Assembly: GCA_001662655.1 (NCBI GenBank)
Contig: KV460217.1
DNA length: 64,000 nucleotides
DNA from: Pseudogymnoascus verrucosus
Taxonomy: Eukaryota
Direction: 5' to 3' (one strand)
Shown: piece after piece, positions 11,393 to 62,665 of the stretch
Layout of the letters: every line of letters starts with the position of its first letter
Numbering within the stretch: the first letter of the stretch is position 1
Program-made: the position numbers and the translations under genes
Notes under the pieces: model-generated
Seen by the model: the letters and a program-made list of their open reading frames with translations, nothing else
Told to the model about the DNA's origin: nothing
The model's database searches: none

Positions 11393-12080
11393 AGTTATTG
11401 TCTTTTAGAAAACTGATATGGGTAAGAATGTCAGATCGCCCATCGATTTACAGCGGAATGAACGTGGAACCCAGCTAGCTAGATGACAATTAGATCTAGC
11501 ATAGGGTTTATTATAAATGTACACTGACTCGCAACAGAAGTGGAAACCTCCAACCCGTCGACTTCAATTAATATGACGCAAAGTTCGGGTGCCAAGCCGC
11601 GGAGATCGGGATCGGAATATAAAAACTCCGAACTCCGCGGGTAGGTGCCGTACACTTGGGTGCTTATGAACGAGTTACGCTTTGGTGTCTTTTCATATTC
11701 GCTGCTACATCCTGTTACGTTTTGTTTCGGTATTGTTGTTGCTGTACCGGTTCAGCTAGAGTCTATCGCTGTGTACACCTAATTCACTTGCATACACCCC
11801 ATTATATCTTTGTAGTATGGTTTTGCTACTATAACAACTAATTCACCATCGCGGTAGTTGAGCTTCATGTCATATCATCCATTAGGTCGTCGCGCTCCTC
11901 CGATCTCCCCGAACATGTCTTAGTCTAATCAAACTTAATTTCCATTGTCTTTTGCTATAAAGTCACAGCTCGTTCTTGAGGAGTACTAAATCATAATTCC
12001 ATCCTTTCACAGCATCCTTTCGCAGCAATCCATCAACCCATTTCCAAAGCACATCATCAATCTTCGACACAGCTACAACA

Positions 12081-12905: not shown

Positions 12906-12936
12906 AGAACTAAAAGCATCTTTTCTCTAATAACTT

Positions 12937-14120
12937 CTACCGTCTTATGATCACTCTCATACCCAGGCTCCCTTCTCTCACGTACGGTGTCACATGGTCT
13001 GCGACCATTTCCACATCATCCTTGGTAGTCTCGAAAAGCTCGAATGTTGAACCTGTCTGTTTTCCCGTTCCATCATAACTGTCGTATTTCCTGAAGATAC
13101 TAGCGAGTATTGTAAACAGCTCGGAATATGCCAATGGCATCTGCGAACAATCAGCGAGAACCACGTATGATGAAAATGTGACCTACACCTAGACATCTTG
13201 GAGACCCACGTGAGAAGGCAAGTTGATATCTATCGAGCCTTAGGTTGTTGAGGAATCTTTCAGGTCGGAAGACGGAAGGTAAAGGGTAGATGTCCTCGTT
13301 CCTACTTAGTAGAGGTGCAGTCACTCCCACGGGTATCTTGTTTTGTCAGCGAATTTGTACCCCGTACCTTGAACAAACCTTGACTCACTCCTTTAGGAAT
13401 CAACCATTTCATCCCAGTCTTCCTATCTTCATACAGCAGGTCCTCATCTAGCGCAACTCTTTCTTGGCGAATACTAGCGCCGGGATGCAGACGAATTCCT
13501 AATTTGACTATGGCTGTCAAGAAGGGCAGTGCTTCTAACTTATTTAACGGGGGCATATCTTGAGGGTCTGGAATTGCGCTGATCAACTCATCTCTGAGTT
13601 TCTTCAATATCCTTGGGTTTGAAAGCAGGTGGTAAGTAGTGTAAGCAAGGGTACTTGCAGTTGTGTCTGTCCTACCACCTAGGAGAACGCTCGCCTGGTC
13701 CGCTAACCGCTTGTCGCTCTTTTCTGCTTCGGGAAGATTTTGGTTCCGAATGAGACTATGGAATATGGTTTTGCTCAGACTATCGGTTTTCAACTCGTTC
13801 TTTGTCTCTTCACGGACAACTGAAATTCTGCTGTCAATGGTCTATGTAATTTAATTTAGTGCTGAGATTATTGTTTAAAGGAAGTGGTGCTGACTTTCAT
13901 GAGGGTCAGAAAGACCTCGATTTCTGGCATAAGCATTACAACAAGCCGTTGCGGAAGTGCAGTAATGGTTGGAATTAGCCATGGATTCCAGGACGCGAAA
14001 TGATATCCCTTCCCTAAGTCATGTTGGGCCGAGAAAAATGGCTCATTGAGATCTTCTTCATCCAGATTGTTATAACTTTCGCCAAAACAGTAGCCCAAGA
14101 TAATGTCGGAGGTCGTGGCA
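12937..14120 (-). pseudogene. 5'-truncated cytochrome P450
   Basis: FRPERF and heme motif FSRGSPRCLG are present. ExxR reads KLGIR and the I-helix reads GGRTDTT. The N-terminal exons are absent, replaced by an AT-rich tract from about 14120. Confidence 0.8.
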
Positions 14121-17231: not shown

Positions 17232-18710
17232 ATAGTACTCTAGGCGTGGTTTTTGCTACGGGTTTCCCACGCCGCATGCGCAAATGCGGGAGTTGTCCTT
17301 ATTCAGAAAAAAACCCCAAAAACCCAGTTGAAATGCTATTATCCACGTCCCTTTGTGATTTTACTATGGCAATGTGATCAATTCCGACCTTGTCATCATA
17401 TGCCCTAAATTGAATATATATTTGATGCCCATGCCGTCTTCCTCCGAACGCACAACATCAAAGGCTCTCTATCACTAGATTTAACCTAGCAAACAAGACA
17501 AAAACAGCTCCCACCCATCCAAGACAGGTACTATCAAATCCTCCCCAAGATCCACCCAAACTACCCCGTCTTACATCGTACAACCCCTACGCTCAACGCC
17601 GATCTTTGCCCTTACCTATATAAAACGGTCATCTCCCGCATTACCACCAAGAATCAGCCTCCAATGCCTCATCGGCATTGTGATAGATCACCAGCGAGAT
17701 CCGAGACATTACCGTCATAGTATTTCAGCCGCCATCCGCTCCAAACAAGACTGTCATAGCCCCATGTTTTCCTCGTCGCACCGCCAACTAGAGCTAATTC
17801 CTGTTGGCTTTGCGGCTTGTGTTGTGACCGAGATGGATATAGTAAAATATTTAACTCACCCACAGCGTTTTCAAACCCCCAATCAAAACGTAGGAACTTA
17901 ATGGCTTAGGGCAATAATTAATAAGCTATTTACTTAAAAATAAAACAAGAGAAATAAATCCTATCGCGGTAAATTCCCGGTATCAACCCCCAGGTATCCA
18001 TACCCCCCCCCCCCCCCCAAAAAAAAAGACACCTAGGTAGCACCAGTCTCATCAACCCCGTGTAATACAAGCTTTCAACCCCACGACAATATCCACACCT
18101 TCACCCCCCTCCTCGCCCAAAACCACACCATCCCCCATCAAACCCAGGCACCACGATCTCAACCCCCCCCCCGATCCCGATCACCCCACACCCACCCACA
18201 CCGTCATCCTCCTACAAACCCGGCTCAAAAAACCAACCCCAAAGCAACGAATGAAGTGCTTAATTCTTAGATTGTACTATATCTCAACCAGCTTGCTTCG
18301 TTATAGAGAAAGTGCTAATATGGAATGAAAAGTGTGGTGCAGGAATAAAACAGATTCCACCATTATGTAGGGAGGGACAGGGAAATGGGGGAGTACAAAG
18401 AAGGAAGAGATGCCGGCAGTTATATACTTCTGCCATCTTTCTCCTTCATTGAAAACCAACAGTAAAGATTACAATCCGCGAATTCCAAAGCACAAAATCC
18501 CCTCTTCAAATAAACACCACCGTACGCCCCCCTCCCCTCCTTTACCACCCCGCAAGCAACCCCTATAGCCCCCCAACTAACAGCCCTCACCCCAGACCAC
18601 CACCCAAAAATTAANNTTAACACTCACCGGATTCGGCCCCTTCGGCTGCCCATCAACCTTCTTCTTCTTCACCTCCCCCACCCCCTCCTCCCCCTCCTCC
18701 CTCTGCCTCT

Positions 18711-19151: not shown

Positions 19152-21305
19152 TTATGCGACTAAAATCATATGACATTTTCTCTTGGCTGCCTCCTCATAG
19201 GCACAATTCAGACAGCAATCCGCCTGTAATAGTGTAGGTCGGCCACGGCAACAGGCAAACAGCTGCGCAACTGGGTTTCGCGAAACCTGCACAATCGCAA
19301 GCTTCCCCTTGCTTGCCAGGGGGGATGCGACAGACGTCGTGAACACGGCATCTTCGTGCTGTGATTCCAAGGGCGTATCTGGTGGGTGATCGCATGGCTC
19401 TGTCTCGCGAACTGCCCATGAAGCAATGATTGTATGCCCAAGTACGAGATGCGCAATTTCGCCTCCTACACGAATAGTCGAGGTTAATTCAAGGGAGGAA
19501 ATACTCTCTACTATGGTCATCTCCAAACTAGAGTGTTCTCCAATACTAGACGGGGTTATTTGCTGGCCCTGGTGTATATTATTTTCCGCATCTGGCCTAA
19601 CTGGCCCAACGGCCTTGAGCGACGCGTGGTATCGACCATTAAAAACAAGCTGGCCTTCCATTAAAATAAATGGGGCATTCATTTTATTTGGAAGTTGAGG
19701 CGTTTGAAGTGCTGCCATGTAGACTGTGCTCGAATTCGAACTACCAGCAACATAATTACCAGCAAAATCCCGGTTCGTCCTGGTACAGGTCGTCATTATA
19801 TAGCGGTGGATGACTTCGCAATAGTCATACTTATTATTTTCAGCATTCTTAGCATAAAAATCTTGCGTCTGATCCAGAAGATCTAGTATAATGTTTAGAT
19901 ATGCCGATCGAAACGTGAGCGCAATTGGATTTGGAATGGTTGCACAATCGTCTGCATCAACAAATAAACAAGCGAATCCACAACTAATAGCCATTCCAAC
20001 CGCACTCCACAATCGATAGAGTGAGCAAGACCAATTCCTGCTGAGATGGTCATGAAACTGCCAGCCAAGTTCCGTAGAACATCGCGTCTGTGTTATGCAA
20101 CTGCAGGAGACTGTGGGTGTCGCCTCATCGAATGCCAGTACTAAATCATGGAATGCGCTCTCCACAGATGATGGAGGCTTAGCCCAACCTGGTGGTATTC
20201 TCCAGAGCTTCTGGCAGATTTTGTCTATACGCTCATGAGGATAGGGCCCCAATAATTTGATGGCACCATGACCTCTTCGGAAGCCCGTTGTATCAGATCG
20301 ATGGTCAACACCGTCCAATTTTTTGGCCAACGGCTCTAGCGTGGCGCAACACGCAATCCGGAGAGGCTCGGGGCATATCATTCCGTCTTCCATAAACATA
20401 ACTTGCAGCATATCCGCCATGCATCCAGTCCATTTGTAGCAGTACCCCTCATTGGGAGGTGTCTTGATGCCTTCTACTATCGGGAGAATGGGGACTGTTT
20501 TGTGGATCTGTAGTTTCGACTCTATTTGAAAGTTTACGAACCCATCGGAGTCCGTAAACTCAACCAGTATTGACTTCCGTAGCCCCTCAAAGACTATCAC
20601 ATTCTCCATGGTGACAAACGCATCTTCGGGAAACATTATCGTGACAATCGCCAAGATAAGCCCCATCGACTGAGAGCCACGAATACGAACAATGATGGAT
20701 TCTTCTCGGATGGCCCGTGTAATGGCATGCAACAGTTCCGCCATGGATTCTGGTGTAATCTTGTCCAAAAAGTTACCTGGTACAGGTTTTCCAAAGTGTT
20801 TGTAGGCGTCATAAACCCTTACGACCTGGGAGGCGAGAATGTTGCCGAATCCCAGCACTTCAAGTTTAGAACTGAGAGTCCTGGCGACCTTGACGAGCTG
20901 TGATGGGCTTGATATTGCAACGGTTTGGGACAGCATGGCTTTGCTCAGCCCAGAAAGTAGTCGTCCTGTATTAAACTCATCGTAGAGATTTAGTATGCAC
21001 ATTGAAAGTAGTGAAATAGCCTGACCTCCCGCAGACTGGGCCATCAACGACGCCGAATCGCCTTTCCGCCAGCCAACGAGTAGACCGAGCCGATCCAGCC
21101 GAGTGCTTTTGCATCGCTGAAGGAGATCTGGGACCTGGAGAGCGTATTGCCCGTTGATATGAAAAAGAGAGCCCAAGTTCTCCATCTGAACCATGGCCAG
21201 TGGTGTCACGTCGTCAGCAGACAGGGCTGAGAGGACTGGTGCGAATGCTGCGAGTCCATTGAGCGTGAGACCGCCGACGTCAACTTGTGGCGCGACTTGA
21301 GACAT
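19152..21305 (-). CDS. Hypothetical protein, 717 aa, intronless, Cys-rich C-terminus (CCLNC)
   Basis: Long uninterrupted ORF with globular-protein composition; no family recognised. Confidence 0.8.
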   Translation of the reverse strand: MSQVAPQVDVGGLTLNGLAAFAPVLSALSADDVTPLAMVQMENLGSLFHINGQYALQVPDLLQRCKSTRLDRLGLLVGWRKGDSASLMAQSAGGQAISLLSMCILNLYDEFNTGRLLSGLSKAMLSQTVAISSPSQLVKVARTLSSKLEVLGFGNILASQVVRVYDAYKHFGKPVPGNFLDKITPESMAELLHAITRAIREESIIVRIRGSQSMGLILAIVTIMFPEDAFVTMENVIVFEGLRKSILVEFTDSDGFVNFQIESKLQIHKTVPILPIVEGIKTPPNEGYCYKWTGCMADMLQVMFMEDGMICPEPLRIACCATLEPLAKKLDGVDHRSDTTGFRRGHGAIKLLGPYPHERIDKICQKLWRIPPGWAKPPSSVESAFHDLVLAFDEATPTVSCSCITQTRCSTELGWQFHDHLSRNWSCSLYRLWSAVGMAISCGFACLFVDADDCATIPNPIALTFRSAYLNIILDLLDQTQDFYAKNAENNKYDYCEVIHRYIMTTCTRTNRDFAGNYVAGSSNSSTVYMAALQTPQLPNKMNAPFILMEGQLVFNGRYHASLKAVGPVRPDAENNIHQGQQITPSSIGEHSSLEMTIVESISSLELTSTIRVGGEIAHLVLGHTIIASWAVRETEPCDHPPDTPLESQHEDAVFTTSVASPLASKGKLAIVQVSRNPVAQLFACCRGRPTLLQADCCLNCAYEEAAKRKCHMILVA

Positions 21306-22161
21306 TGTTGAGGTCTGAAGCTGAGACTTCGGCGTCGGCAGTTTTGTGGTTATCGTTCGACGATGCTGGAGACTGAACTCATGGATGTTAACCAGAGAAG
21401 GCTTGGCGATGCGAGGCTATGCACAATCGTCAAACATCAAGATGATTCGCTAGGTGGTGATATAGCCAAGCACTGGACTGTATATGCAGGTATGCCCAAC
21501 AGGGGCTCATCAGGCACTCCGCGGCTGTTGCCATCATACCAGGGGTGGCATCGTCAAGTAAATGGAAATTACAGAGGTGAACAGAGTGAGAAAGAAATCT
21601 GGGACTTCACCGTGTCCACGACAGCTGTCGACATTTGTGTAGTTGGCAAGTTTGTGAATGGAGAATATGGCGGGAAAGGCGAAGTTAAATGCCGTTCATA
21701 TGGCTATGGCAGGCACGGCTTCGTTCTTGCTGTGACAGGAGCACAGTTGAAGCCTCAGCCTCGCTCTTGCCATGAATGGTAGTAGTTTTGGCTTTGGTTG
21801 GGAAGGAGCGGTTGATATACGACACGACAACTTACTGTGGCAGGAGCGGGTTTACACCCTCGCGCTTGCTATAGATGGAAGGCAAGAGCGCCTGATACAC
21901 GACAGCCTACAGCGGCAGGAGCGCTTGACACCAGTCTAGCAGCGGCTATCTCATAGTCGCCTCATAGTGGTTCTATGTTGATGATGACAGATACCATCTG
22001 CGACTTACCTTATCTATTCTAGGAAAAACATGCTGTACTGTACAAAGTAGATATGTAAGTGGCACTCACTTGGGGGAGTATACCGTGAGAATCACGTGTT
22101 GTGTTGAGTGTATGGTGAAAATCACGTGTTGAACATAACACCTCGCCGAAAGGAAAGAACG

Positions 22162-28436: not shown

Positions 28437-29749
28437 CTAAACCAACCCCCCATAAACCCCCTCCTCAAACCTCCTAAACCCATCCAACACCCCCTTATCA
28501 CTCGTCGGCATAATCTGACTCCCCCAAAACAGCGCCACCCCCCTCACCCTATCAACACTCCAATAACAATTCGCCAACCCCGCCCACATCAGCGTCCCCT
28601 TCCTCCTCCTCCCCTCCACATCAGCTTGACACACCGCACCCCCCAACGCCTGCGTAAGTCTCGCCTCCCGCGGCAGAGACTGCGATAAGACCTCCGCGCC
28701 CTCGGCGTACACCGCGGCGTTGAAATATGGCTGTACCTCGGGGCTTAACTGCGGTTCAAACAACATCGCCATCGTCTCCGGCCTCAGCAGCGCCCCGTCA
28801 TCCCGCAAGATAGCAGCAAGGAGCTTCCCATACGCGCTCGGCGCAGCGAAAATTCCCGCGCCACCGGACTCGAATTCCGCGCCCTCGTGGTAAAAGTGGT
28901 TAGGCGCCGGCAAGAAGGTGTTGTCTGGCCCGCGGAGTGTGGCGTCGGCGAGGGATGACGCGATGGCGGGGTCGGAGGGGGAGAAGGATATGGGGGACAT
29001 GGAGAGGGGGTGCCAGATGTGGGTTTGCATGTATGAACCTAGGGAGGTGTGGGTTAGGCGCTCGAGGAGGCGGCCGAGGAGCTCGTAGGAGGAGCCGTAG
29101 GTCCATTGGGTGCTGGGTTGGGCGAGGAGGGGGTTGAGTTGGGATTCCTGGGCGGCGGGTTAGAAGGGGTGGGGAAAGAGGGAGGGGGTTAACGCAACGC
29201 ACCCATGTGAGTTTGGAGGGAACGGCGTCGCCTGCTTTTTCCTTGAAGTCGCGGATTTGCTGGATATACGGGTGGAAGAAGTTGTATCCCATGCCGCTCT
29301 GATGGGTTAGGAGCATTCGGATGGTGATTTTCTTGATGGCTTTCTCGTAGGTTGGTTCGCCCTCGTCGTTGAACTTTATGAACACGTCGGGGTTTGCGAA
29401 CTCGGGTAGCACGGAAGAGACATCTGCGTCGAGGTCAACGAGACCTTTCTCGAAGAGCTGGAGGATGGAGATGGAGGTCATAAGTTTAGTGGCGGAGGCG
29501 ATCCATATTGAGTTGTCCGGGGAGAGGGGCTTGTCAAATAGCGGAGAGGCCGGGTCTTCTGACTGAGTGCCGGCGGAGTGGGAGTATATAATTCCTTAGA
29601 AGGTCAACTTGGAACAATTTATCATTTTATAGTCAATACATGGAGATGGACATACCATCTTTAGTCACCGCGATGGCGGCGGAGCTCGGAATCACACGGT
29701 CAGGGCCGCGGGTTGCGGCTTTGTCTAACCATTGCTCGAAAGCAGACAT
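28437..29749 (-). CDS. Beta-lactamase-family (class C/LovD-like) esterase or transesterase
   Basis: SxxK motif in WIASATKLMT, plus LLTHQSGMGY, GGAGIF and WAGLAN; spliced gene starting MSAFEQWLD. Confidence 0.9.
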
Positions 29750-30440: not shown

Positions 30441-32008
30441 CTACAGGAACCATCTGAACTCCGGAGCCCCCGGCCCCTCTCGTAACCTCTCCGTCGCCAC
30501 CGCGCCAACCCCACCAACCGTCCTGCGGATACCCTCCTTAGAATCTCTCCTCTTATTATCCCATGCCATCCACAGACCCAGCAACACTGTGCAGACAAAC
30601 CCCAAACCACCGAATGCCGCCGTTGTGGCGAGCGCCGGGATGTATTTGGGCGCGTCTTGCTCGCGGAAGATGTTGGAGGCGACAATTCCCATGAGGTTTG
30701 CAAGCGGGACGGCGACCGAGGTAAGGAGCAGACGGCGCGAGGGATGCGGCGTGTTGTTATTGTACCAGACATCGAGGATGACCGATGGAGCCGAGGTTCC
30801 CCCTATAGTTTGTTAGCGGGGAGATTCTTAGTTAAAGGGGGAAAAAGTAGGGAAAGCATACAGGTCATCATGAAACTGGCGAAGTAAGCAACGTTCAACT
30901 TCTCCTCGACATCGATCCCAGCATAGATCACCATGCCAACAAACGTGAACATGAATCCCAGCGCAATAAATACCCATCGATTTTTCGTCAGATCACTAGC
31001 GAAACCCAGGATTAATAGCATTACAGCCCCCGACACATTGGGAGCCACGGTGTACAGGTTCGTCTTGACTGCGTCGTAGCCGAGACGCCCAATGATTTGT
31101 GGCAGAAAGAGCTGGACGGCCTGAAGTGGGACACCGAGACAGATCTCGATGACAAGGATGGCCCAGGTGGTCGGGTGTTGGAAGATGACTGCAGCATCAC
31201 GCAGGTTGAAGACTCCATCGTCGTCCTCGGACGCAGAGGAATCAAGCAGCATACGTGCCTCAGCGAGGATCTTCTCGTCGTCGTTCAGGAAGTGCGCCGT
31301 CGCGGCATTGCGCGGGAGGTAGAAATAGGCAAAGATGGAGAAGAGGACGGTGCCGGCACCTTCAATCAATGGGAGAAAGCGCCAGCTCTCCAAGACGTCG
31401 GACTTGATGCGGAAGACGCCAAAGGCGAGGAGGCCACCAAAGGCAGAGGCGATGGACTGGCCAGCGTAGAAGATGGCAAGGCGGCGGGCCAGCTCCATGC
31501 GTCTGTAGAAGGTCGTCTGGTAGTAGATGACGAGAGGGAAGAAGGCGGATTCGGCCATGCCTAGGAACCAGCGGATGGTCATGAGGCCGGCAAAGTTCTC
31601 GGCGGCAGCGACGCACATTGTGCACGTCCCGAAGACGACCATCATCGCTGGCAACACACGGTTGGGACCATACTTCTTGCCCAGAATGGCAAGGAACGGT
31701 GCCGTCAACACGTATGGGATGAAGAAAATAGACAGGACGAGACTGTATTGGTTTGTGCCTTCCATGCCAAGGGATTTCTCGAGGCCGGCAGTTTTGGCGT
31801 TGCCGAGGTTCGTCTTATCGAGGGTATTGAAGAGGTACATGACGGCGAGGGTAGGGAGGATGCGAAGATCGAATTTCCAGACAAGGCGGCGCTCGGCGGC
31901 CTTGTCAAGGACCACTGGCGGCGTCTCATCTTCAATCTCGTCGACTTTTTCGAGAGAGTGGCGGGGCGACGACGGGTCGTTGGCCTGCTTCTCTGTGTCT
32001 TGCACCAT
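30441..32008 (-). CDS. MFS transporter, anion:cation symporter (allantoate/nicotinate permease-like) family
   Basis: ERRLVWKFDLRILP, LDKTNLGNA, RWFLGMAES, FYRRMELARR, WRFLPLIEG and terminal FRWFL; one intron near 30800-30860. Confidence 0.92.
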
Positions 32009-32325
32009 GATGGTGAGGGGTAAAGAGGAGAGGAGAGAGACAGGAAATTTTACCGGCTCTTTTACAGGTAGGTAGGAAGAATTGAGGAAAAATTGATGAG
32101 AAGAGGGGGAGGGAGGAAGAGATGAAGAAAGAGATAAGAGATGCCGAGAGAGGCGGACAAACCTACTGTTATAAGCCCTCTACGAGGGTGTGTGGAGTCC
32201 ACATATCTGCTCTACTAAAAGAAGTATCGTCACATTAGTCGTTATCTTTCCTGGCCGTTGACCCGCAAAAGAATCCGATATCTGTTGTGAGAATCACCAG
32301 TCGACGACTCCGAATTTGCGGGGAA

Positions 32326-51486: not shown

Positions 51487-53467
51487 TCAAACCTCTACAT
51501 TCCGTTCCTTCCGTTCTTCCTTCACTTCTACCACCTCCGTCTCAACCCCCGAATGCACTTTCATCCTCTCCATCCCAACCGCATTCCTCTCCCACGACGC
51601 ACATGCAACCAGCACCCCTAGCCCAGCAACCCCAGTAAGCGCCGTCATCTGCACCCTAAACACTTTTGCATACACCGCCCGCACCATAGCCAGCACATCG
51701 GGTTCAAATGTCAACGCTCCTAACGGACTTCGATGCAGCGCCTCCATCTGCGCATCCGAGAGAAAACCCCCTAAAGCAGACTCGGAACGGGCGTTAAACA
51801 GCGCTGTAGCAATAGTGAGTCCGATGAAGCCACCCAGTGGACGCAGTTGCGCCGTTGCGCCCTGCGTGGCCGCGATCTCGCCTACCTCCGAGTTTAGGGT
51901 GACTATTAGCGTACCGGCTGAGAGGCACATTCCAACGCCGATTCCGAGGAGAACTTCTACGCCGTACAGGTAATGTGGGATGCTCAATGTGTCGGGGATG
52001 GTGGTTAGGAGGCCGAGGGCAAGGAGTTGGAGACTAGAGCCGCCTATGAGGGTTGGGGAGGTGAGGTTGCGGCCGGAGGAGATTGCGCCGCCGACGAAGG
52101 AGCCAAGGCCGGTGGCGGCGGCGAGGGGGAGGAGAGAGAGTCCTGCCTGTAGTGGGGAGGACCCGTTGACGAGCTGGAAGCGTTCGGGGAGGAGGATGGT
52201 GGCTGTTATCAAGGGGAAGCCGGTGCAGAATATGGAGCTGGTGGTATCTGGTTAGTTCATGGCAATGCCAGAGTAAAAAGGAGTGGGAGATGAGCATACC
52301 AGAAAGCGGCAGCCATGACGCGGCGCTTGAGAATGTGCATTGGGAATATGGGTTCGATATTCGACCAGGAACGCGTGCCAAGGAAGCCTTCCCACGAAAA
52401 AAATGCGACCCAGAACACGCCCGACAGTACGAGGCAGGTGACAATAACCGCCTCTCCCCAGGAACGTCCTCCCGTCGTCGCCCTCTGCAGGCCATATACT
52501 AAGCATACCGAGCCTCCCATCATGAACAGTACACCGACAAAGTCGATACTCAGAAACGTACGCCATTTGCCGCTATCAGAAGTCTTCGCGCTAGCCGGCC
52601 AGATGAAGAAGATAGACGCCATGGCGATTACGGAAAATGGTAGGTTCATATAGAAAATCCACCTCCAAGTCGATTGATTCGATATCGCACCACCCAATAT
52701 AGGACCTAGCACTCCCGACCCGCCGACAGTGAGTCCGATCCACGCCGCGCCGGCCGCGAACTTCGATGGATTCAGAACCTCAGCGATCATGACCATTCCC
52801 ATGGAGTAAAGTCCCGCGCCGCCGAGGCCCTGGAAGGCACGGAAAACGATGAGCTGGCGGATCGTGTGTGAGAGGGCGCAGGCGAGCGAGAAGACCATGA
52901 AGAGCGCCCAGGAGACAAGCATAATGGTTTTACGGCCGTATATATCGCTTAGTCGCGCGATGGCCATTGCGAAACCTGGAAGTGTTAGGGGGCACGAGAC
53001 AATGATGGGAGGGCGACTTACTCATATATGTCAAGAGATAGGCCAGGACGATCCATGGCGATAGCCAAAAGCTTCCGAGCTCCTCTACGATACTGACCAG
53101 CGCCGTCCCTATGATAGTTGTGTCCAGAGTCGAGAAAAACACCCCAACAAAGATACTAGGGCATAAGGTTAGCAGTGAAGAAGATTTGAGTTATCCTGGC
53201 GCGAGGAACGTACCCTGCCAGTGCAACATTCCTCCTCCATGGTTCCACATGAGGCCATGGCACAGCATGTTTGTTAGCCGTACTCGTGGCCACGACGTGA
53301 CTCTGGATGTCTTTCTCGGGTTCGGATCCGACGCAAGGGACCACTGTCACAGACGTTGCCGTAATATCCATTTCGGGGCTCTTGGGTGCTTGGAGGTCAA
53401 TATTGCTCGCCCTTTGCGACTCGAATTCCTTGGGGGAAACGAGACTATCCGGGTTGCTACTAGACAT
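51487..53467 (-). CDS. MFS drug:H+ antiporter (14-TMS, DHA2-type)
   Basis: LDTTIIGTAL, WIVLAYLL, LSDIYGRK, RAFQGLGGAG, GPILGGAI..WRWIFYMNLP and LPERFQLV; multi-exon. Confidence 0.9.
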
Positions 53468-54935
53468 TGCGGCGGCGAGTTGGGGTGCCGATATAAGGTT
53501 TGCCCTCTACTATGTGGCTCTACGCCTGGGAAAGGGACAGGATCCTCGAGCGGAGCTGGGTGATGTGGTAATATATGCGAACAGGAGATCGGTCCCTAAA
53601 TATCAACTCCAGTCACTGACAAAGACTCGGTGAACGTCTCTGGTAGCATCAATGGCTTCCCAGGATATGTAAGGGCTGGCTTCTCCTTTCCTCATACAGC
53701 AAGCGCAGTTCATTGGTATTACGGCCGTAGCTCGAAGTTTATATGCCAGGGCGAGTCCAACGCACGTATAGTCTGCTCCAACGTACGTATAGCCTGCATG
53801 CCGATCAAGCTGCCCGCCAGTCGATTTCAAACAGTGGGGAATACAGCACGGAAAAAGAAGTGGAAGCTGCCTTACTTCCACATATATATTTGATGGAGTA
53901 GTCGAATCGTCGACGACGTTGAAAAAAGGTCAACCTGTCCCCCTAACCGAAACTAGAGGGCACACTCTAAGTAATAACCGACCTCTAGCACTATACCATC
54001 GGGCCACACTATCCCGTCGTCCTTTGTACTGGGATGAAGCAGCGGGCACTATCGAGGCCGCTGTGGGGCTGTCAGAAAGTGACATTTGCGTCACCTCCTA
54101 GGGTATTGGCTTGCGTCGACCAAACGGCCTCCAGGAACCCTTACTTCAGGCTTCAGTCCCTAGCTTGTTGCGGCTATATTAGACCATCCAGAAGTCCAAT
54201 CAAAGTCCTAAAGTAGACACGCGGCGAGCCAAGAAGGAAGAGAAGGATTGCAAGCCTAGAGATCCAAGTATAGGGCGTCGTCTGTGGCCTAATCCATCTG
54301 GCCCCAAATTACACTCTGCCCATCCATCCCGTGGCCTTCCCCAACGGCCATCCAAAAGCTTTCCCCCGCAGAGAATCACACATTAACCAGCCTCGGTCAT
54401 ATCTCCTAAAACAACACTGTCTGCCCTGGTCGTCTACAGAGCACATTTAGCCTCTTCACCGCGTACGCCACGGCCACGCCACGCCGGCGCGCAACCGAAC
54501 AGACGGAACGCGCGATTGGCCTTGTGGATGAAGAACATCAAAACGACGCCGATCCTCGGTTGCAGCGCTCAATCAAACGGACTGGGAAGCGAGATGACAG
54601 TCCTACGCGGTCAAGCGCGCTCCATTGGGGGATAAATGCTAGGGCCGGTGGCGCATGAGGCGCATGAGACGGGTGGAAACCGTCAAAGCATGATGGACAG
54701 TGCTTGACGCAGGTGAGTGGGGTTGACGAAGAGGCCAGAAGGGGAACTGGTAAGCGATGTGGTGAAGGTAAAGACGCCGGAGTGATGCCGGCGTATTACT
54801 GTGTTGTGCTTTCCCGCTGTAAATTACTCGTATTGTCACGTGAAATCCGACCGTTCCGATATAACACTAGGATTGTCATCTTTTCCCCGATGGGCTGACT
54901 TGTACCACATATACTGCACTGTATAACCCCAGAAC

Positions 54936-55867
54936 ATGTTGGCGCCAAGCACTGTGAAGACGCCGGTGAGGGCCAAGGTCGATCTGATAGCCTGGGATCC
55001 GGATTCCCCAGCCCATACCGAGAGGATGGTTCAGCATCGGATTGCATGCGGGTGGAAACAGGACTATATCGAAGGGTGGCGGGGTTTGCAGAGAGAGGGG
55101 AAGATGGGTCTTCAGTGGGTTGTGAGTTTCTCATTTTGTTTACGATGGGGTTTATAAGACCTAAAAAAAGCAATGCTTCTTCCGATTTTTACTTTTCGCC
55201 TGTTGAGATTGTAGCTATACAAATGCGAATATTGCGAGTGGTTGTATTTATGATATATAATTCTAACTACCAACGCAGGTTCTAGCAGAGGACGACCCAG
55301 AGAAGGAAACCAAGCTCGCCCAGCACCTACTGAAGTACCCCGAAGACGCCACACCCATTCTTGACACCGCCACCTCCCTGGCTGGTAAGCCACGATTACC
55401 CTCTTCGCGTTCATTCGTCCCCGTGGGCCATATCTCTCTCGACTCAGAAAGCCCCAATCCTGGCCAAGCAGATGCCTCACAAGGACTCTACTGCATCACT
55501 ACTCTCTACATCTCCCGCGCTATTCATGGAGGTGGGTTAGGCCGTGCTGCCCTGGACGCCGTCGAGAGCCAGGCCATCAACGAGCCGTTGTGTGCGAAGA
55601 TATTGTCTCTTGATACTCTGGCAAACAGCAGTTGGAATAGAACAGATATATGGGAGGAGATGGGCCAGAAGAAGCCTGAGGTATTTGAGCTACCCTCAAT
55701 GAAATCGAAAGTGGTGAGCTAATTGCAGACAGATGTCGGCTGAGGATTGGTATGAGAGATGTGGATATAAGGCCTGGAGATACAACGAAGGCCATATCCA
55801 GCACCGGACCGACGATGGTAGAGTTTGGCCCCTAGACGGCGTCTTTATGAAGAAAACGGTTGTATGA
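54936..55867 (+). CDS. GNAT-fold acetyltransferase-like protein
   Basis: 3 exons; VGHISLD, LYISRAIHGGGLGRAALDAVE (acetyl-CoA motif A-like), WYERCGY and VFMKK*. Confidence 0.75.
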
Positions 55868-56091
55868 ATTTGAATTACGATCTCTTAATTCTAACTCATG
55901 CGATTGTTTGGCTTTGTGAAGTAGAAGGCGAATACATTTACCTCTATCATGTAGGTTCTCAAAGGGCAGATTTTGTGACGTGACGATATAGAAGCCAACC
56001 GATACAGTGCAGTCATCTGCGCGAATTTCACAGATTAAGATATCAATATGTTCGCCTCTGGCAAGTAATAAACTAACGCCTATCATACAAC

Positions 56092-57072
56092 CTACATAAG
56101 ACAAGTGTCATCTTTCACCCGATGCGCCGCCGCAAAATCAAATATCGCCTCATAACTCCGACACTCGTGTACATCGCCCCATCCATCGAAACCAGGTATT
56201 ACATCGCCATCCGCGTTTACCAGTGCCGTTTCCAGCGTTGTATCGCCCGTACACATGATCGCCTGACGCAGATAGTCGAAGCAGTGACCCAAGTTATTTT
56301 CCGCCGCTTGGTTTTCGCTCACGTCTCTGTCGCGACCGAAGGCGTCCCTGAGTATTGACTGTTCCGGTATTTAGTAAAATGTGGGAAACTGATAGACAGT
56401 ATAGCTAGGGGTGCGTTGAAGGGGAAGGAGGATTTGCCTTACCAGACAGTAGAGCTGGTGAAACATTGAGATGGAGTATATCTCTGTCGCCACTTCGGTG
56501 TTTGGGACCGGGAACCCCCCCCTTAAACCGTAGTTCCACGGTTTCTGAACCTCTACGAACCCTGCGCCAACTATAAGTCCAGTGTCGTTAGCACAAGCCC
56601 CTGAGCACCTCAAGACTACACCAGAGAATAGATCCCCACAGAGAGATACGCAACGAGAGAAAATCAATAGCATACGGGGAAACAACATGTCCCACACTGA
56701 CCGGTTCCCTGGTGTCCCCGACCCTGCATTGACAAACGCCTCATCCAGCCTGAATTTGACCATCTCCTTCGGTACTGGAGGTGTTTGTTAGCCTCTTTCC
56801 AACTCTTTTATGCACTTCACCGAGTGCCTTCAACCGTCGACAATGAACGAGAACACACTATTTCCAAAATAAGCCTCCGAGCGGACTGCCCCAGTTTCTA
56901 GGCTATCAGACATTGGGATATATGCCACGACGAGAAGGACGGTGAAGATGTAGAGGGCTGCTAAGGTGTAGTATCTCCGTTTCCATTTCGCGAGGGCGAT
57001 GCGGACGTCATCGGCGGATGCGAGGTAGTATTCTGTCTCATCATCTGCAGATGACAAAGGAACCTCTTTCAT
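56092..57072 (-). CDS. DUF3328/UstYa-family membrane-anchored oxidase with variant metal motifs
   Basis: 4 exons splice into an open frame: N-terminal TM helix, then YSISMFHQLYCL, NLGHCFDYLRQAIMCTGDTTLE and GWGDVHECRSY. Confidence 0.92.
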
Positions 57073-57430
57073 TTTGATTCGAGGATGTTAATGATATCTG
57101 ATGTGAACATATAAGTGTCAAATGTCCATGTGGTGGTCTGGACCATTAAATACTAAGCACTCTATATTTAGCCCGTTGTGGGGTTACCGTTTCTTTACGC
57201 CGCATGAGTCCTCGTATTCACCCGTCCCGTCTCAAACCAACAACGGTATTTTCGATGCATAATTTTTTCGTATTCAGCCGCTCTCAAAACAGTAATGGCA
57301 TCTGCGCCTTTTGCTATATCTAATGGCCTGTACAGGATAAGTCTACAATTTGTGTGCAGAAACGGACAACAAAATTGCTGCTGATCCGGCCCCTTGGTTC
57401 AGTCTTGAGGCATCACCAGGTAATACCACT

Positions 57431-59483
57431 TCACTTCAAAAGAAAGGTCTTTATCGCAACCCCTCTATCCCTCAGAGCATCGGCATCCAGCCTCAGATCC
57501 CAGTGAACCACCTCCCCCGTCATCACGTTCTGGAAATGCTCCACGAAAATCGGCTGCGAATGCTGCCACTCGCCCTGAACCCGAATCCAGCCCGGCGGCA
57601 GCGGGCCTAAGCGGGGATCTTCGCGAGTTGTTTCATTTGTAGCGTTGTTGGTGTAGTGCGGCTGAGGTTGAGGGTGATCACGGTCGTCTATCAACTTTAT
57701 CTTCCATCCGTCGGGAAGAGGGCTAAGGATAGATACAGAGTCACAGAGACTTGGTACCAAAGCACCTGTGATGACAACATAGGCGTCGTCACCGGCCGGC
57801 CGGAGGATCAATGAGGAGTTGCGTCCCAGTACAGTGGTGATCATATCGCCTGTCTCGTATTAATATATGGTGAGCAAGTTGGGAAGTTACACATGTTACG
57901 GAGCATTAAAACATACCAGCTCGGACCATCTCGCGGCCATCCCCGACCTTCCCAATCAGTCCGTTGTGGCTGACAATAAGGCTGTGGCCCTGGTTTCTTA
58001 CCTTAAGCCGTGTCCATAGGTTAACATCGAAGGGGCCATTCGAGTCTCCACCTCCTAATGCGGCGTCGAGCAGGTTGCGAACCTCTTGCTGGTCCCACAC
58101 GCTCGCATCGTCCGGGAGCCGGTCCTTGGTGAAGCAGTCGCACAGTATGGAGACAAGCTCATCGATCAAGTCTATATTGCAATCTTGTAGCCGTTTGGCA
58201 ACTGGCTTTAAATCTCTCAGCATCTGCAATAGCGCCGACAGCCTTGAAATGTCCTCGGGAATCCAGCCAGGCGTAAATATGCTTTCAACACTGCCACAGA
58301 CCAATCCATGCACTTCTAACATACCACCACCGAAGCATCGTGTCACTATTGATTGTTCTATGGGATTGTTCTATGGCGAGAATAGTATCCACGTCAAAGG
58401 CCGCTTTTATATTGGCTAACCAGTAACACTCATCGATCAACCCGACCACAGTAAGGGGAGCGATTTACGTCCGTACAGAGCCATAATTGCCCTGCGAACC
58501 GTTGCCCACGACCTCGCGGACTCCCCGCATATCATAACGCGATTTCGGTTCCCAAGCTGGATTTCCTGCCAAGACCAACGCTGTTGAAACCAAGCAAGCC
58601 TAAGCAAATCGACTACTCCGATCCATTCGACAATGGTAAATGGCGGTGCTGTGTTCTCCTTGACCCACTCCGGGTAAGTGGTCTGAGGGGTAGGGAAGCA
58701 GAAGTCATCCATAGTGTACTGGATCTCGCCCCCAAGCTTCGCCAGGGTCTCGAGACCAAGAGCAGCGCTGTCTCCTCGGTGGCTGAGCCACACGATGACG
58801 ACCGATGCTAGCGCATAAACTCGCCCAATACACTTAGCCTGCATGGCCTTCTCACTTTTGTTATTGTGGTCTATGCATATCATGTCGACCCAAAGCGTGC
58901 GTGTCCTATCTGTGAGGCGGAGTTGTCTGATGGCGTCAGCGAGGTCAAATTGCATCTCAATTTTACTGTGCTCTTCAAGAGCATTGGCTGCATTGACCAC
59001 CGTTATTTCAGCCTGCTGAGTTTTATCGCCCCACGTGGATGACAGCACCTCATATTCAGGCATGAATGTATCGTCTGGATAGTTTGGCAGTGGCGCATAC
59101 AGCATACGACTGACTCGGGGGTTTGGATGATGCCATGATGTTTCTCCCGTGCGAATTCCCCAGAACAGATACTTGCAATCTATCGTCTCAAAAACTCGCC
59201 ATCCGTCCAGCAACGTTTCTTGCAACTGGTTGATGGGCAACCTTTGGGTAGGAGCCGCGTCAGGCAGTTGTAACAAGGCGTGGTGGATCTCGATCTGGAG
59301 ATCGTCCTCGAACTGGCCTGGAAGTATTGTGAGAAGTCTTATTTCTTCTACGGTTTCCAGAGACTTATACTCGTACAGCTTCATCGCTGACAGTATCCCA
59401 CGAGTATTGGCCATGATGTGTGGTGTATATGTGAATATGCCGGATGATGCCTCTGCCTCGAGAAGCCAGAAGGCAGAAGCCAC
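57431..59483 (-). pseudogene. HET-domain protein with WW-like modules, probably disrupted
   Basis: EIRLL, YEVLSSTWG, LWVDMICID, RVYALASVVIVWL and WFQQRWSWQEI. The frame breaks at about 58437 near a 13-bp tandem duplication, and the usual DxRD/PSWVPDW segment is not seen. Confidence 0.75.
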
Positions 59484-60078
59484 AAGCCGCTACTCGTAAC
59501 TAATATGCATCAGTACTAATAATACTCGTAGCCAATAGTCTATATTGGGGAGCTTACACTATCTCGCCTTCAAATTAATAGACCGAGGTCGGATGTTGGA
59601 GCTTTTATTAGCACGAAGTTGCAAACACAAAACAAGTGAGACCCGAATACATTTATCAATTACCGTAGCTGTTGCAAGCTAAATTGTGCCCGCCTAACCT
59701 GCAACACTTAATAGTAAGATTTATCCATGTGATTTACTCGAGTGGTAGTAATAAAGTTTGTGGCTAACAACGTCCAGGGCCTTATAGGTTCTCAAACAGT
59801 GATTAAGCATTAAGTCTAGGCCTGGCAGTAGAGTCTTCACCTTCAGACTCACAGTCGCTGCCATAATTAAGTATACTAAGCTCCTAGGGCCTCGTCACAG
59901 ACTGCGGCTAGCAGATTAATTAGAGTCGTAGCTGTGAGCGCATTTGGCATCAAGCCCAGTCTCATGGCTTATGTAAGTTACCATAACCAATAGTTACAAA
60001 TATCGCTACAATGCCATCATCATGGAACACATGACAAAGAACATGGGAACTTAGAATCGTGGCAACTAAATCAATAAC

Positions 60079-61242
60079 ATGAAAAGCTTCTATACTGCCG
60101 TTTACCTCTTCACTGGTATCACTGCCGCTATCGCTACCCAGAAGAAGAACCTCATAATCGAAACAGACCTCTTCAGTGATGTCGAGTGAGCACCTGGGGC
60201 AATTCCCATATGTCCTTGAATACACCTCTGACAATCAAACAGTGATGCTGGTGCCCTGTTGCTTGCAGCAACTTCCCTGAACATAAATCTATTAGCTGTG
60301 AACATCAATCACCCATCGACCTACTCCGCCCTCGCCGCTTCAGCAATCTTAGCACACTATGGACATCCCAAGATCCCAATCGGAATCCGGCATCCGCTAA
60401 CAAATGCCACCTTCTTCGATAGCTGGTACTTTGCTCTTGGCGAGTACACCAGCAAAGTCGCCTTCCACTGGTCTGGCGGGTCCTTGCCCTGGGGACATGT
60501 CGAGGAGGCCTGGGATCCGGTGGCGCTGTACCGGAAGGTGCTGAGCGAGGCTGAGGATGGCAGCGTGACTATTGCATCAATTGGCTTCCTTGATAATGTG
60601 AGTTTTACGGCCTTATACAGCAGCCATGGTCTTCTAATTAGATGGCAGCTCTCAGGACTGCTGAACTCGACCGCTGACTCCTATTCCGACCTTAGCGGCC
60701 GTGATCTCATTGCCCACAAGGTTGCCGAGCTAGTCATTATGGGCGGCGGCTACCCGTCGGGGTACAGTTGGAACTTCTGGGGCTCGAATGGTAGTCTCGC
60801 CGCGCACGTTGTTAATACGTGGGAGGGACAGATGGTGTTTGTCGGCGACGACGTTGGCAAGGATGTCAAGTCGGGTGGGGAGCTTATGTCTGCAGGGCCA
60901 AAGACGGATCCAGTGCGGATGGCGTATATTTACTACTCATACTATGAACCGACGTCTTCGTGGGATCCGCTGGCTACTCTGTATGCCATTGGTGGGCTGG
61001 GGGAGTTGTTCAAATATGGAAATGAGTATGGATACAACCATGTCAACGCCAATGGGGCGAATCGATGGGTGTGGGATCGGAAAGTGCAGAACCAGTTCTT
61101 TCTGAGGTTGAAGGTTAGCAATGAAACAGCTGCGCAGGAGCTAGATCGGTTGTTTCTCAAAGGGGCATTGTCAGTCGTGGAACAGCATACAGCAGAAGCA
61201 CCACGAAGAAAGCATGTAGGTTCGGCACATACAGAGTTATAA
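60079..61242 (+). CDS. Inosine/uridine-preferring nucleoside hydrolase family protein, with signal peptide and C-terminal HTEL
   Basis: MKSFYTAVYLFTGITAAIA, IIETDLFSDVD|DAGAL, IASIGFLDN, LVIMGG..P...WNF and SWDP. Confidence 0.88.
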
Positions 61243-61493
61243 CTTTTTAGATAAAATTCTCTCTACAGATATATTTAACTAACACCTGAAACGCCCCCCA
61301 AGCTATCAATTTCAACCGGATCCCATCGTATGGTTACATCCAAAATACAAATCATATCTCGTCACTCCCTCCAAACCAAAGCATATATATAAAAGGGGCA
61401 CGAGTTCGGTTTCTTGCCAGATTACATACATTTAAAACTACTATGGTATCGCAGTGTAAACAATCCTAGACCCGCTGCATTCCTCGACTCTCT

Positions 61494-62665
61494 TTAACAC
61501 GCCGCGTTGGCGGCCGCGGTGGCAGGTGCGGCGGCGGCCGCCTTGTTGCCCTTGTGGTGAGGCTCGCGGGTCTCAATGTCACGGGCACAGGCAACATTGG
61601 CGTTGGTGGCAGCAGTAGCAGCAGCGCCGTTCTGTGCAGCAGCGCCGTTTGCAGCGGCGGCCTTGTTGCCCTTGTGATGGGGCTCGCGAGCCTCGATGTC
61701 GCGAGCACAAGCAACATTGGCGTTTGTGGCGGCAGCGGCGGCACCGTTGTTGCCCTTGTGGTGACGGGCCTCAATATCCTGGACGTCGCGAGCACAGGCT
61801 ACATTGGCGTTGGTGGCGGTGGTAGCGGCAGTGGCATCTTGAGCAGCAGCGCCATTTCCAGCGGCCGCCTTGTTGCCCTTGTGATGCGGCTCTGGGGAAC
61901 GGTCTTCAAGCTCGTCCTCATGGCGCGCAGCCGCCTGGACCTTCTTCCCTTTGTGATGCGGCTCGGGAGAACGGTCTTGAATGTCCTGGACCTTCTTCCC
62001 CTTGTGGTGCGGCTCTGGGGAGCGGTCTTGGATGTCCTGGACCTTCTTTCCCTTGTGATGCGGTTCGGGAGAGCGGTCTTGAATGTCCTGGACCTTCTTT
62101 CCCTTGTGATGAGGCTCGGGAGAGCGGTCTTCAAGCTCCTCTTCGTGGCGCGCGGCTGCCTGGACCTTCTTTCCCTTATGATGCGGTTCTGGGGAGCGGT
62201 CTTGGACTGCCTGGACCTTCTTTCCCTTGTGGTGAGGCTCGGGAGAGCGGTCTTGAATGTCCTGGGCCTTCTTTCCCTTGTGATGCGGNNNNNNNNNNNN
62301 NNNNNNNNNNNNNNNNNNNNNNNNNNNNNNNNNNNNNNNNNNNNNNNNNNNNNNNNNNNNNNCCTTCTTTCCCTTGTGATGCGGTTCTGGGGAGCGGTCT
62401 TGAACTGCTTGGACCTTCTTTCCCTTGTGGTGACGGGCCTCCAAGTCAATGGCTACACCGCGAGCGATAACTGCACCACCGCCCTGTGAGGTGTTAGTAT
62501 TTGTTGGATGAATGAGATCAAGTTCAGTTGTAGATGAGGTAATTATGAAGGATGAAGAAGACATACAATATGACGTCTAGCTAAGCCACCGCTAGCCACA
62601 TCCTGTCCGTTGATGAGAGGGGCAAGCGCCAAAAGGCCAAATGCCAAAAGAGTCGAGGTATGCAT
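61494..62665 (-). CDS. Secreted tandem-repeat peptide precursor (KEX2-processed repeat protein / RiPP-precursor-like) with HHKG cores
   Basis: Exon 1 (62665-62567) reads MHTSTLLAFGLLALAPLINGQDVASGGLARRHI; intron GTATGT..CTAAC..CAG (62566-62484). Exon 2 has 13 visible HHKG[KN][KN] repeats and a 74-N gap (62289-62362). Confidence 0.9.

What the first reader, a model, noticed from the sequence alone, without database searches (positions are those of the whole stretch)
51487..62665. Candidate new fungal RiPP/KEP locus: His/Lys-core repeat precursor near DUF3328 oxidase, GNAT and MFS exporter
Seen: a signal-peptide repeat precursor (61494-62665) lies about 4.4 kb from an intact DUF3328 gene on the same strand. 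That gene is next to a GNAT-like gene, which is divergent from a DHA2-type exporter; a signal-peptide nucleoside-hydrolase-fold gene is next to the precursor. Established: a repeat precursor plus DUF3328/UstYa, often with a transporter and tailoring enzymes, is the signature of dikaritin clusters (ustiloxin, phomopsin, asperipin-2a, victorin). Inference: the core has no Tyr/Phe/Trp, so any product would differ from the Tyr-ether dikaritins, for example a His/Lys-modified, acetylated or metal-binding peptide. Caveats: a HET pseudogene interrupts the group, the DUF3328 motifs are atypical, and linkage may be chance.
Basis: partly seen in the sequence, partly recalled or inferred. Interest (0 to 1): 0.85.

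Follow-up and report, generated by a model that had tools for sequence, protein, structure and literature searches.

The report
Catalogued His-His repeat-peptide gene near DUF3328

Summary
A two-exon gene (61494-62665, minus) encodes a signal peptide and at least 13 HHKG units. It has no Tyr, Phe or Trp, and a 74-N assembly gap lies inside the repeats. An intact UstYa/DUF3328 gene lies 4.4 kb away on the same strand. A damaged HET gene and a weakly nucleoside-hydrolase-like gene lie between them, and a GNAT and an MFS gene lie beyond.

It is not new. The 98% identical Pseudogymnoascus ortholog (OBT59642.1) is in Umemura 2020 Table S2 as a Kex2-processed repeat protein (KEP) with "DUF3328 in vicinity". 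A Colletotrichum incanum relative belongs to that paper's di-histidine type G-8 (#15), where 45 of 49 members have a DUF3328 neighbour. Linkage is therefore probably ancestral, not chance.

Across 11 family proteins, all 55 readable HH motifs follow Arg plus zero to two X-Pro dipeptides. This suggests Kex2-like and Ste13-like trimming to peptides that begin His-His.

Against an active RiPP pathway here: the DUF3328 reads HQLYC and NLGHC instead of two HxxHC motifs, and these histidines are essential copper ligands in CctR. Also, 15 of 16 Pseudogymnoascus strains with this DUF3328 have no catalogued KEP beside it. The product is unknown.

The parts
61494..62665 (-). HH-type repeat precursor (KEP). 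Exon 1 is 62665-62567 (signal peptide plus an ARR site), the intron is 62566-62484, and exon 2 is 62483-61494. At least 13 HHKG units are visible.
   Evidence: Sequence and translation; tandem repeats; 98% identical to P0001/OBT59642.1, which is listed as a KEP in Umemura 2020 Table S2.
62289..62362 (.). 74-N assembly gap inside the repeat array. Copy number and reading frame across it are unknown.
   Evidence: visible
61868..62483 (-). Main repeat block. The 17-aa units read VQDIQDR-SP-EP-HHKGKK (51-nt period), with two longer VQAAARHE(E/D)ELEDR spacers.
   Evidence: HHKG is invariant in 12 of 12 readable units despite synonymous codon changes (CAC/CAT, AAG/AAA, GGA/GGG/GGC).
61494..61867 (-). 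C-terminal Ala-rich units (HHKGN[KN]-Ala/Asn/Thr-rich-NANVACARD-[IV]E[AT]R). This unit type is shared with the Mytilinidion and Lophium homologs.
56092..57072 (-). Intact UstYa/DUF3328 gene with 4 exons and an N-terminal transmembrane helix. Its motifs are HQLYC and NLGHC instead of two HxxHC motifs.
   Evidence: Pfam PF11807 at E 6.3e-16 for the last exon and 2.6e-23 for P0008; exact mapping of P0008; alignment A2.
57431..59414 (-). HET-domain gene, probably a pseudogene. It lacks about 125 residues and has an in-frame stop relative to the homolog inside P0011.
   Evidence: Pfam PF06985; tblastn of P0011
60079..61242 (+). Secreted-looking gene with weak nucleoside-hydrolase similarity, tail to tail with the precursor (252 bp apart).
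   Evidence: IU_nuc_hydro at E 7.1e-5, below the gathering cutoff; no PDB sequence match; frames.
54936..55867 (+). GNAT-like acetyltransferase gene with 3 exons, tail to tail with the DUF3328 gene.
   Evidence: Acetyltransf_1 at E 1.9e-4, 22.1 bits against a 20.7 cutoff; frames.
51487..53467 (-). MFS transporter (TRI12-like), divergent from the GNAT gene.
   Evidence: MFS_1 at E 7.5e-24 and TRI12 at 2.6e-8; frames.

Best explanation
The gene at 61494-62665 is a member of a small, widely scattered ascomycete family of secreted di-histidine repeat proteins. These are related to the KEP type G-8/#15 of Umemura 2020, whose linkage to a DUF3328 gene is ancestral.

**Shown**
- The protein has a signal peptide followed by tandem units.
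- HH-x-G is invariant in those units.
- Every HH is preceded by Arg plus 0-2 X-Pro dipeptides.
- An aliphatic residue usually sits four positions before the Arg.

**Inferred processing**
- In the secretory pathway a Kex2-type protease cuts after the LxxR-like Arg, and possibly after KK.
- A Ste13-type dipeptidyl aminopeptidase removes the X-Pro pairs.
- A Kex1-type carboxypeptidase trims the C-terminal Lys.
- This releases ten or more short peptides with a free His-His N-terminus (HHKG or HHKGKK), plus a few longer Ala-rich HHKGN peptides.

**Inferred link to DUF3328**
- In the wider family these peptides are the likely substrate or partner of the neighbouring membrane-bound copper enzyme.
- In this genus that enzyme has lost two of its four copper-ligand histidines.
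- Oxidative modification is therefore probably lost or altered here, and the peptides are most likely secreted linear.
For: - **Family.** phmmer against 1.84 billion representatives gave 15 hits, about 9 of them true relatives. They come from Mytilinidion, Lophium, Colletotrichum, Gaeumannomyces, Sporothrix, Truncatella, Neocucurbitaria and Pseudogymnoascus.
- **Processing signature.** 43 of 43 HH motifs in 10 relatives, and 12 of 12 readable ones in the window, follow R-(X-P)0-2. The position four before the Arg is L/I/V/M in 35 of the 43.
- **Protease rules.** Kex2 accepts an expanded LxxR motif (passages of PMC8528282). Ste13 removes XA/XP dipeptides after the Kex2 cut (passages of PMC6339444).
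- **Selection on the peptide.** HHKG is invariant in 12 of 12 units while its codons vary synonymously.
- **Linkage.** C. incanum KZL67495.1/OHW91178.1 are type 15 with the DUF3328 flag. G. tritici EJT81738.1 and the ortholog OBT59642.1 are also flagged. Type #15/G-8 has 45 members with and 4 without DUF3328.
- **Enzyme state.** Alignment A2 shows HQLYC and NLGHC here, while the Trichoderma and Phaeosphaeriaceae homologs keep both HxxHC motifs. The four His form the binuclear copper site, and His/Cys-to-Ala mutants of CctR are inactive.
Against: - No peptide has been observed, so the processing scheme is inferred from sequence only.
- The window's precursor has no KR or RR between its repeats, only KK.
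- In the main repeats the residue just before the Arg is Asp (QDR, EDR). Asp is not among the alternative residues listed for that position in PMC8528282.
- Similarity to the type-15 member is short and motif-centred: pairwise BLASTP E 5e-5. Umemura's own BLASTP clustering left the ortholog stand-alone, type 0.
- I could not fetch any fungal genome context. I therefore do not know whether the DUF3328 genes beside G-8 KEPs are orthologs of this one.
- The paralog P0041 carries the HH region ahead of a Cys-containing Thr/Gly-rich repeat domain and has no DUF3328 flag. This fits a pro-domain or structural role as well.
- Tyr at the first motif is conserved in 6 of 8 ortholog clusters and the protein is 68-98% identical across the genus. 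An altered but functional metal site is therefore not excluded.
Confidence: 0.5

Rival explanations
1. This is an active RiPP cluster. The DUF3328 protein, perhaps with the GNAT and the MFS exporter, modifies and exports a His/Lys core peptide, giving a new non-Tyr dikaritin-like product.
For: - The family-level linkage is strong: 45 of 49 G-8 KEPs have a DUF3328 within 15 genes.
- 3 of 4 distinct family members found in Table S2 carry the flag.
- The DUF3328 gene is intact and conserved at 68-98% identity in 16 strains.
- The precursor and the DUF3328 gene are on the same strand, with three annotated loci between them in the sister strain (VE04_00152 and VE04_00156).
Against: - Both HxxHC motifs are broken (HQLYC, NLGHC). 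The two-motif rule is the proposed marker of RiPP-related DUF3328 proteins, and the His residues are essential in CctR.
- The motif residues drift within the genus: Y/H/N at the first motif, H/Q at the second.
- A HET pseudogene lies inside the group.
- 15 of 16 strains show no catalogued KEP beside the ortholog.
- No evidence of any kind ties in the GNAT or the MFS.
Confidence: 0.2
2. The repeat protein is not cut into peptides. It is a secreted, intrinsically disordered His/Lys-rich protein, or a pro-region, that binds metal or the cell wall. Its DUF3328 neighbour in this genome is a relic or a coincidence.
For: - There are no canonical KR/RR sites between the repeats.
- The paralog P0041 joins the same HH region to a Cys-containing Thr/Gly-rich repeat domain and has no DUF3328 flag.
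- 30.1% of all Ascomycota KEPs have a DUF3328 within 15 genes anyway.
- The DUF3328 ortholog persists in 15 strains without a catalogued KEP neighbour.
Against: - The strict R-(X-P)0-2-HH rule in 55 of 55 motifs across at least 8 genera is what a trimmed N-terminus predicts. A mere metal-binding repeat does not predict it.
- The 45 of 49 linkage in type G-8 is far above the base rate.
Confidence: 0.25
3. The gene is broken or mis-assembled, and the open frame is an artefact of a collapsed tandem array.
For: - A 74-N gap lies within the array.
- The sister-strain model P0001 is shorter (176 aa) and has a different C-terminus.
Against: - The frame is open on both sides of the gap and in phase with the same repeat.
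- The signal peptide, the intron with consensus ends and the stop codon are all in place.
- The synonymous-only variation in HHKG argues for a selected coding sequence.
Confidence: 0.05

Closest known systems
Di-histidine KEP type G-8 (#15) of Umemura 2020 (PMC7329392; sections 6, 7 and 13 and Table S2 read)
   Same: - It has a signal peptide and tandem repeats with an HH motif next to Pro.
- It has a DUF3328 gene within 15 genes.
- The genera overlap (Pseudogymnoascus, Colletotrichum, Sporothrix).
- A C. incanum type-15 member matches the window's protein at E 2.6e-7 library-wide.
   Different: - The ortholog OBT59642.1 was left as stand-alone type 0 by that paper's BLASTP clustering.
- The window's units use KK, not KR.
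- The window's protein has an Ala-rich C-terminal unit type.
- No product is known for either.
Dikaritin clusters (ustiloxin, phomopsin, asperipin-2a, victorin)
   Same: - There is a repeat precursor with a signal peptide.
- There is a UstYa/DUF3328 gene nearby.
- A short unit ending in Gly sits just before a dibasic site. This resemblance to YAIG is recalled, not tested.
   Different: - The core has no Tyr, Phe or Trp.
- There are no KR sites.
- The DUF3328 lacks both canonical HxxHC motifs.
- The Pfam scans of the window found no tyrosinase or methyltransferase.
Alpha-factor-type pheromone precursors processed by Kex2, Ste13 and Kex1 (as described in PMC6339444, passages read)
   Same: There is a cleavage Arg followed by X-Pro/X-Ala dipeptides that would be trimmed to expose the mature N-terminus, and the peptide is present in many copies.
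   Different: - The cut site is LxxR-like, not KR.
- The released unit would be only 4-6 residues and very basic.
- The family is linked to DUF3328, whereas pheromone KEPs almost never are (abstract of PMC7329392).
CctR and other DUF3328 binuclear copper enzymes (PMC12435403, passages read)
   Same: - It is a member of Pfam UstYa.
- It has an N-terminal transmembrane helix followed by a C-terminal domain.
- Invariant Cys columns and the CFDYLRQAIMC block are present.
   Different: Two of the four copper-ligand His are replaced (His to Tyr in motif 1, His to Asn in motif 2).
X-His copper(II)-binding peptides such as Gly-His-Lys (recalled chemistry, no call)
   Same: A trimmed HHKG peptide would have a free amine and a His at position 2, followed by Lys.
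   Different: This is purely inferential. No binding data exist, and residue 3 varies (K/R/Q/A) across the family.

Membership tests
KEP, computational definition of Umemura 2020 | N-terminal signal peptide | tested here: met
   Exon 1 has a hydrophobic core with mean Kyte-Doolittle 1.96. I did not run SignalP. The 98% identical ortholog passed that paper's SignalP-4.1 filter, because it appears in Table S2.
KEP, computational definition of Umemura 2020 | At least 3 tandem repeats of at least 8 aa between KR, KK, RK or RR sites, none longer than 100 aa | tested here: met
   There are 9 KK sites, with 17-aa and 24-aa units between them. The definition was read.
KEP in the stricter sense (KR/RR Kex2 sites, KK to a lesser extent; PMC6339444) | Canonical KR or RR between repeats | tested here: not met
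   Exon 2 has 0 KR and 0 RR. The only RR is in the pro-region of exon 1.
Di-histidine KEP type G-8 (#15) | HH motif in the repeat unit | tested here: met
   13 HH motifs are visible. The HH feature of G-8 is stated in the passages read.
Di-histidine KEP type G-8 (#15) | Sequence similarity to type-15 members | tested here: inconclusive
   C. incanum P0047 (type 15) matches at E 2.6e-7, and pairwise BLASTP gives 5e-5 over 50 residues. Umemura's clustering nevertheless scored the ortholog as type 0.
Di-histidine KEP type G-8 (#15) | DUF3328 gene within 15 genes | tested here: met
   The UstYa gene is 4.4 kb away. The ortholog is flagged 'x' in Table S2.
Dikaritin (ustiloxin-type) RiPP cluster | DUF3328/UstYa protein with two HxxHC motifs | tested here: not met
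   The UstYa domain is present, but the motifs read HQLYC and NLGHC. The two-motif criterion is described and its copper-ligand role.
Dikaritin (ustiloxin-type) RiPP cluster | Aromatic (Tyr) residue in the core for the ether cross-link | tested here: not met
   Exon 2 has 0 Tyr/Phe/Trp.
Dikaritin (ustiloxin-type) RiPP cluster | A modified cyclic peptide product | not testable with these tools
   This needs LC-MS and genetics.
DUF3328 binuclear copper enzymes (CctR type) | Four His of HxxHC(x)nHxxHC that bind two coppers | tested here: not met
   Two of the four His are retained in the window's protein. None of the 8 Pseudogymnoascus ortholog clusters has both motifs intact, whereas the Trichoderma and Phaeosphaeriaceae homologs do.

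The most novel reading that the evidence does not exclude
The HH-type KEPs, including this one, are precursors of an undescribed class of fungal peptides. Kex2/Ste13 trimming exposes an N-terminal His-His tetrapeptide (HH-x-G). The linked DUF3328 copper enzyme then cross-links or oxidises that peptide, or the peptide itself serves as a secreted copper-binding peptide that co-evolved with a copper enzyme. The Tyr/Asn-substituted enzyme of this genus would be a variant metal site, not a dead one.
Probability: 0.2. Interest if true: 0.75.

Novelty: new member of a known kind. Interest (0 to 1): 0.4.

Why it matters
Di-histidine KEPs with DUF3328 neighbours occur in at least 18 genera (G-8 alone), yet I found no described product in two full-text searches. 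DUF3328 proteins have only recently been shown to be binuclear copper enzymes.

The rule found here is that every HH follows Arg plus 0-2 X-Pro dipeptides. It gives a concrete, testable prediction of the mature N-terminus and a set of masses to look for.

This particular locus is a weak place to start, because its enzyme has lost half of its copper ligands. It could still serve as a natural comparison for what happens to the peptides when the enzyme degenerates.

Tried and rejected
- **Whole genome.** None is held for this window, so I could not count DUF3328 genes genome-wide.
- **Synteny in other fungi.** The contig collections are prokaryotic or metagenomic. The single metagenome scan returned one 1540-bp contig (L001) carrying a paralog and no neighbours. 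As a substitute I used locus tags, accession adjacency and the DUF3328 flag in Table S2. This is indirect and depends on annotation.
- **Precursor orthologs in the genus.** Two word-index searches (145-462 aa and 96-308 aa) found annotated homologs only in strains 24MN13 and WSF 3629. Tandem repeats are often unassembled or unannotated, so this is weak evidence of absence.
- **Solved structures.** There were no useful sequence matches for the DUF3328, the nucleoside-hydrolase-like gene or the GNAT gene.
- **ESM Atlas look-up of P0047.** The best score was 0.83, below the level that means anything.
- **Earlier findings of this scan.** Five look-ups gave nothing relevant.
- **Pfam on the stretch beyond the precursor.** Five ORFs between 62885 and 63999 gave no family.
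- **My first reading.** I began at 75% for chance linkage and dropped this.
- **Not attempted.** I did not predict structures or complexes. Neither would have separated the hypotheses.

Full report
**What is there**

The last 12.5 kb of the window carries six genes.
- The precursor gene runs on the minus strand. Exon 1 is 62665-62567, the intron is 83 nt (62566-62484, GTATGT...CAG), and exon 2 is 62483-61494.
- Exon 1 encodes MH, then a hydrophobic stretch, then an ARR site. Exon 2 is almost entirely repeats.
- Tandem Repeats Finder reports 51-nt arrays with 86-90% matches and an 87-nt array.
- At the protein level 13 HHKG motifs are visible. Most sit in 17-residue units that read VQDIQDR-SP-EP-HHKGKK. 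Four are in Ala-rich C-terminal units.
- Exon 2 has no Tyr, Phe or Trp, 9 KK, no KR and no RR.
- A run of 74 N (62289-62362) sits inside the array, so copy number and frame across it are unverified.
- HHKG is invariant in 12 of 12 readable units while its codons vary synonymously. This argues for selection on the peptide.

**The neighbours**

- The DUF3328 gene (57072-56092, minus) is intact. The 235-aa model P0008 maps exactly onto four exons and scores UstYa PF11807 at E 2.6e-23.
- Between it and the precursor lies a HET-domain gene. Relative to a homolog it lacks about 125 residues and ends in an in-frame stop.
- Also between them is a gene with only a sub-threshold nucleoside-hydrolase hit and no PDB sequence match.
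- On the other side are a weak GNAT hit and a TRI12-like MFS transporter.
- Upstream of 51 kb the window holds ordinary genes: PIG-P, WSC, a PDR-type ABC transporter, striatin and XPA.
- Pfam found nothing in five ORFs between the precursor and the window's end.
Only the nucleoside-hydrolase fold stays weakly supported.

**It is already catalogued**

- The closest protein is 98% identical: VE04_00156 of Pseudogymnoascus sp. 24MN13, accession OBT59642.1.
- That accession is in Table S2 of Umemura 2020 (PMC7329392) as a KEP of type 0 (stand-alone) with "DUF3328 in vicinity" marked.
- The DUF3328 ortholog in that strain is VE04_00152.
- The paper defines a KEP as a signal peptide plus at least 3 repeats of at least 8 aa between KR, KK, RK or RR. 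The window's gene meets this through its KK sites.

**The family and its linkage**

- A search of 1.84 billion representative proteins gave 15 hits, about 9 of them real relatives.
- By the names the tool printed, they come from Mytilinidion, Lophium, Colletotrichum, Gaeumannomyces, Sporothrix, Truncatella and Neocucurbitaria, plus a Pseudogymnoascus paralog.
- I looked up six accessions in Table S2 and found four.
  - C. incanum KZL67495.1 and OHW91178.1 (one protein, two assemblies) are type 15 and flagged.
  - G. tritici EJT81738.1 is type 0 and flagged.
  - The paralog OBT41320.1 is type 0 and not flagged.
- Type 15 is the paper's G-8: 49 KEPs in 18 genera, 45 with and 4 without a DUF3328 within 15 genes, noted for a di-histidine motif.
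- The base rate is 30.1% for Ascomycota KEPs.
- This overturned my first reading of chance linkage. At family level the pairing is conserved.

**A processing rule**

- In 10 relatives, 43 of 43 HH motifs are preceded by Arg plus zero (7), one (29) or two (7) X-Pro dipeptides. The residue four before the Arg is L/I/V/M in 35 of the 43.
- In the window 12 of 12 readable motifs obey the same rule. The thirteenth is cut by the gap.
- Kex2 accepts an expanded LxxR site. Ste13 removes X-Pro or X-Ala dipeptides after the cut.
- The simplest reading is trimming to a free His-His N-terminus. KK or KR cleavage and Kex1 trimming would then give HH-x-G(KK).
- This is inference. No peptide has been seen, and the Asp just before the Arg in the window's main units is not a listed favourable residue.

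**The enzyme looks impaired**

- Passages of PMC12435403 show that CctR is a binuclear copper enzyme, that the four His of HxxHC(x)nHxxHC hold the coppers, and that His or Cys to Ala mutants are inactive.
- Two HxxHC motifs have been proposed as the marker of RiPP-related DUF3328 proteins.
- The window's protein reads HQLYC and NLGHC.
- Across 8 Pseudogymnoascus ortholog clusters, motif 1 has Tyr in 6, His in 1 and Asn in 1. In motif 2 the first His is Asn in all 8, and the second His is Gln in 1.
- The Trichoderma and Phaeosphaeriaceae homologs keep both motifs.
- The rest of the protein is well conserved, at 68-98% identity. A changed rather than dead site cannot be excluded.

**Genus-level evidence against coupling**

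- The DUF3328 ortholog is annotated in 16 strains.
- I compared their accessions with all 82 Pseudogymnoascus rows of Table S2. Only 24MN13 has a KEP with an adjacent accession.
- Two protein searches found annotated homologs of the precursor only in 24MN13 and WSF 3629, and the latter is a paralog on another contig.
- This evidence is indirect. Repeat genes are often unassembled, as the N gap here shows.

**Verdict**

- This is a real, already listed KEP-plus-DUF3328 locus of the di-histidine kind, not a new class.
- The new content is its tie to G-8, the R-(X-P)n-HH rule, and the degenerate copper site.
- No product is described for this family in the searches I ran.
- I could not see Figure 5 of PMC7329392, which holds the G-8 sequence logo. 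The identity of the G-8 motif with EPHH-x-GK therefore rests on the one type-15 member I retrieved.

Noticed in passing
P0041 (Pseudogymnoascus sp. WSF 3629 VE00_08512); similar proteins P0003, P0004 and L001:535-1239: A paralog carries the same signal peptide and EPHHKGKK units. These are followed by two copies of a Cys-containing Thr/Gly-rich domain (AAITITGTGATSLPAKPDGCATITP...). In this lineage the HH region may act as a pro-domain of a larger secreted protein.
   Followed up: partly
P0011 and P0036 (966 and 1032 aa); window 56092-59414: Two Pseudogymnoascus strains have gene models that fuse the HET gene and the UstYa gene. HET-DUF3328 adjacency is therefore conserved in the genus. The window's HET copy is shortened by about 125 residues.
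   Followed up: partly
window 2351-5941: Retroelement remnants are present: reverse transcriptase RVT_1 at E 2.1e-14 and a Tf2-1-type SH3 domain at E 5.5e-9.
   Followed up: no
window 9846-13841: A fungal-specific transcription factor domain, an alpha/beta hydrolase and a cytochrome P450 fragment lie side by side. They may form a small separate metabolic gene group.
   Followed up: no
window 19155-21416: A 754-aa open frame on the minus strand has no Pfam family at E 0.001 or better.
   Followed up: no
window 28440-29595 and 30806-32179: A beta-lactamase-family gene lies next to a second MFS transporter.
   Followed up: no
window 18615-18616: There is a second, 2-N gap in the assembly.
   Followed up: no
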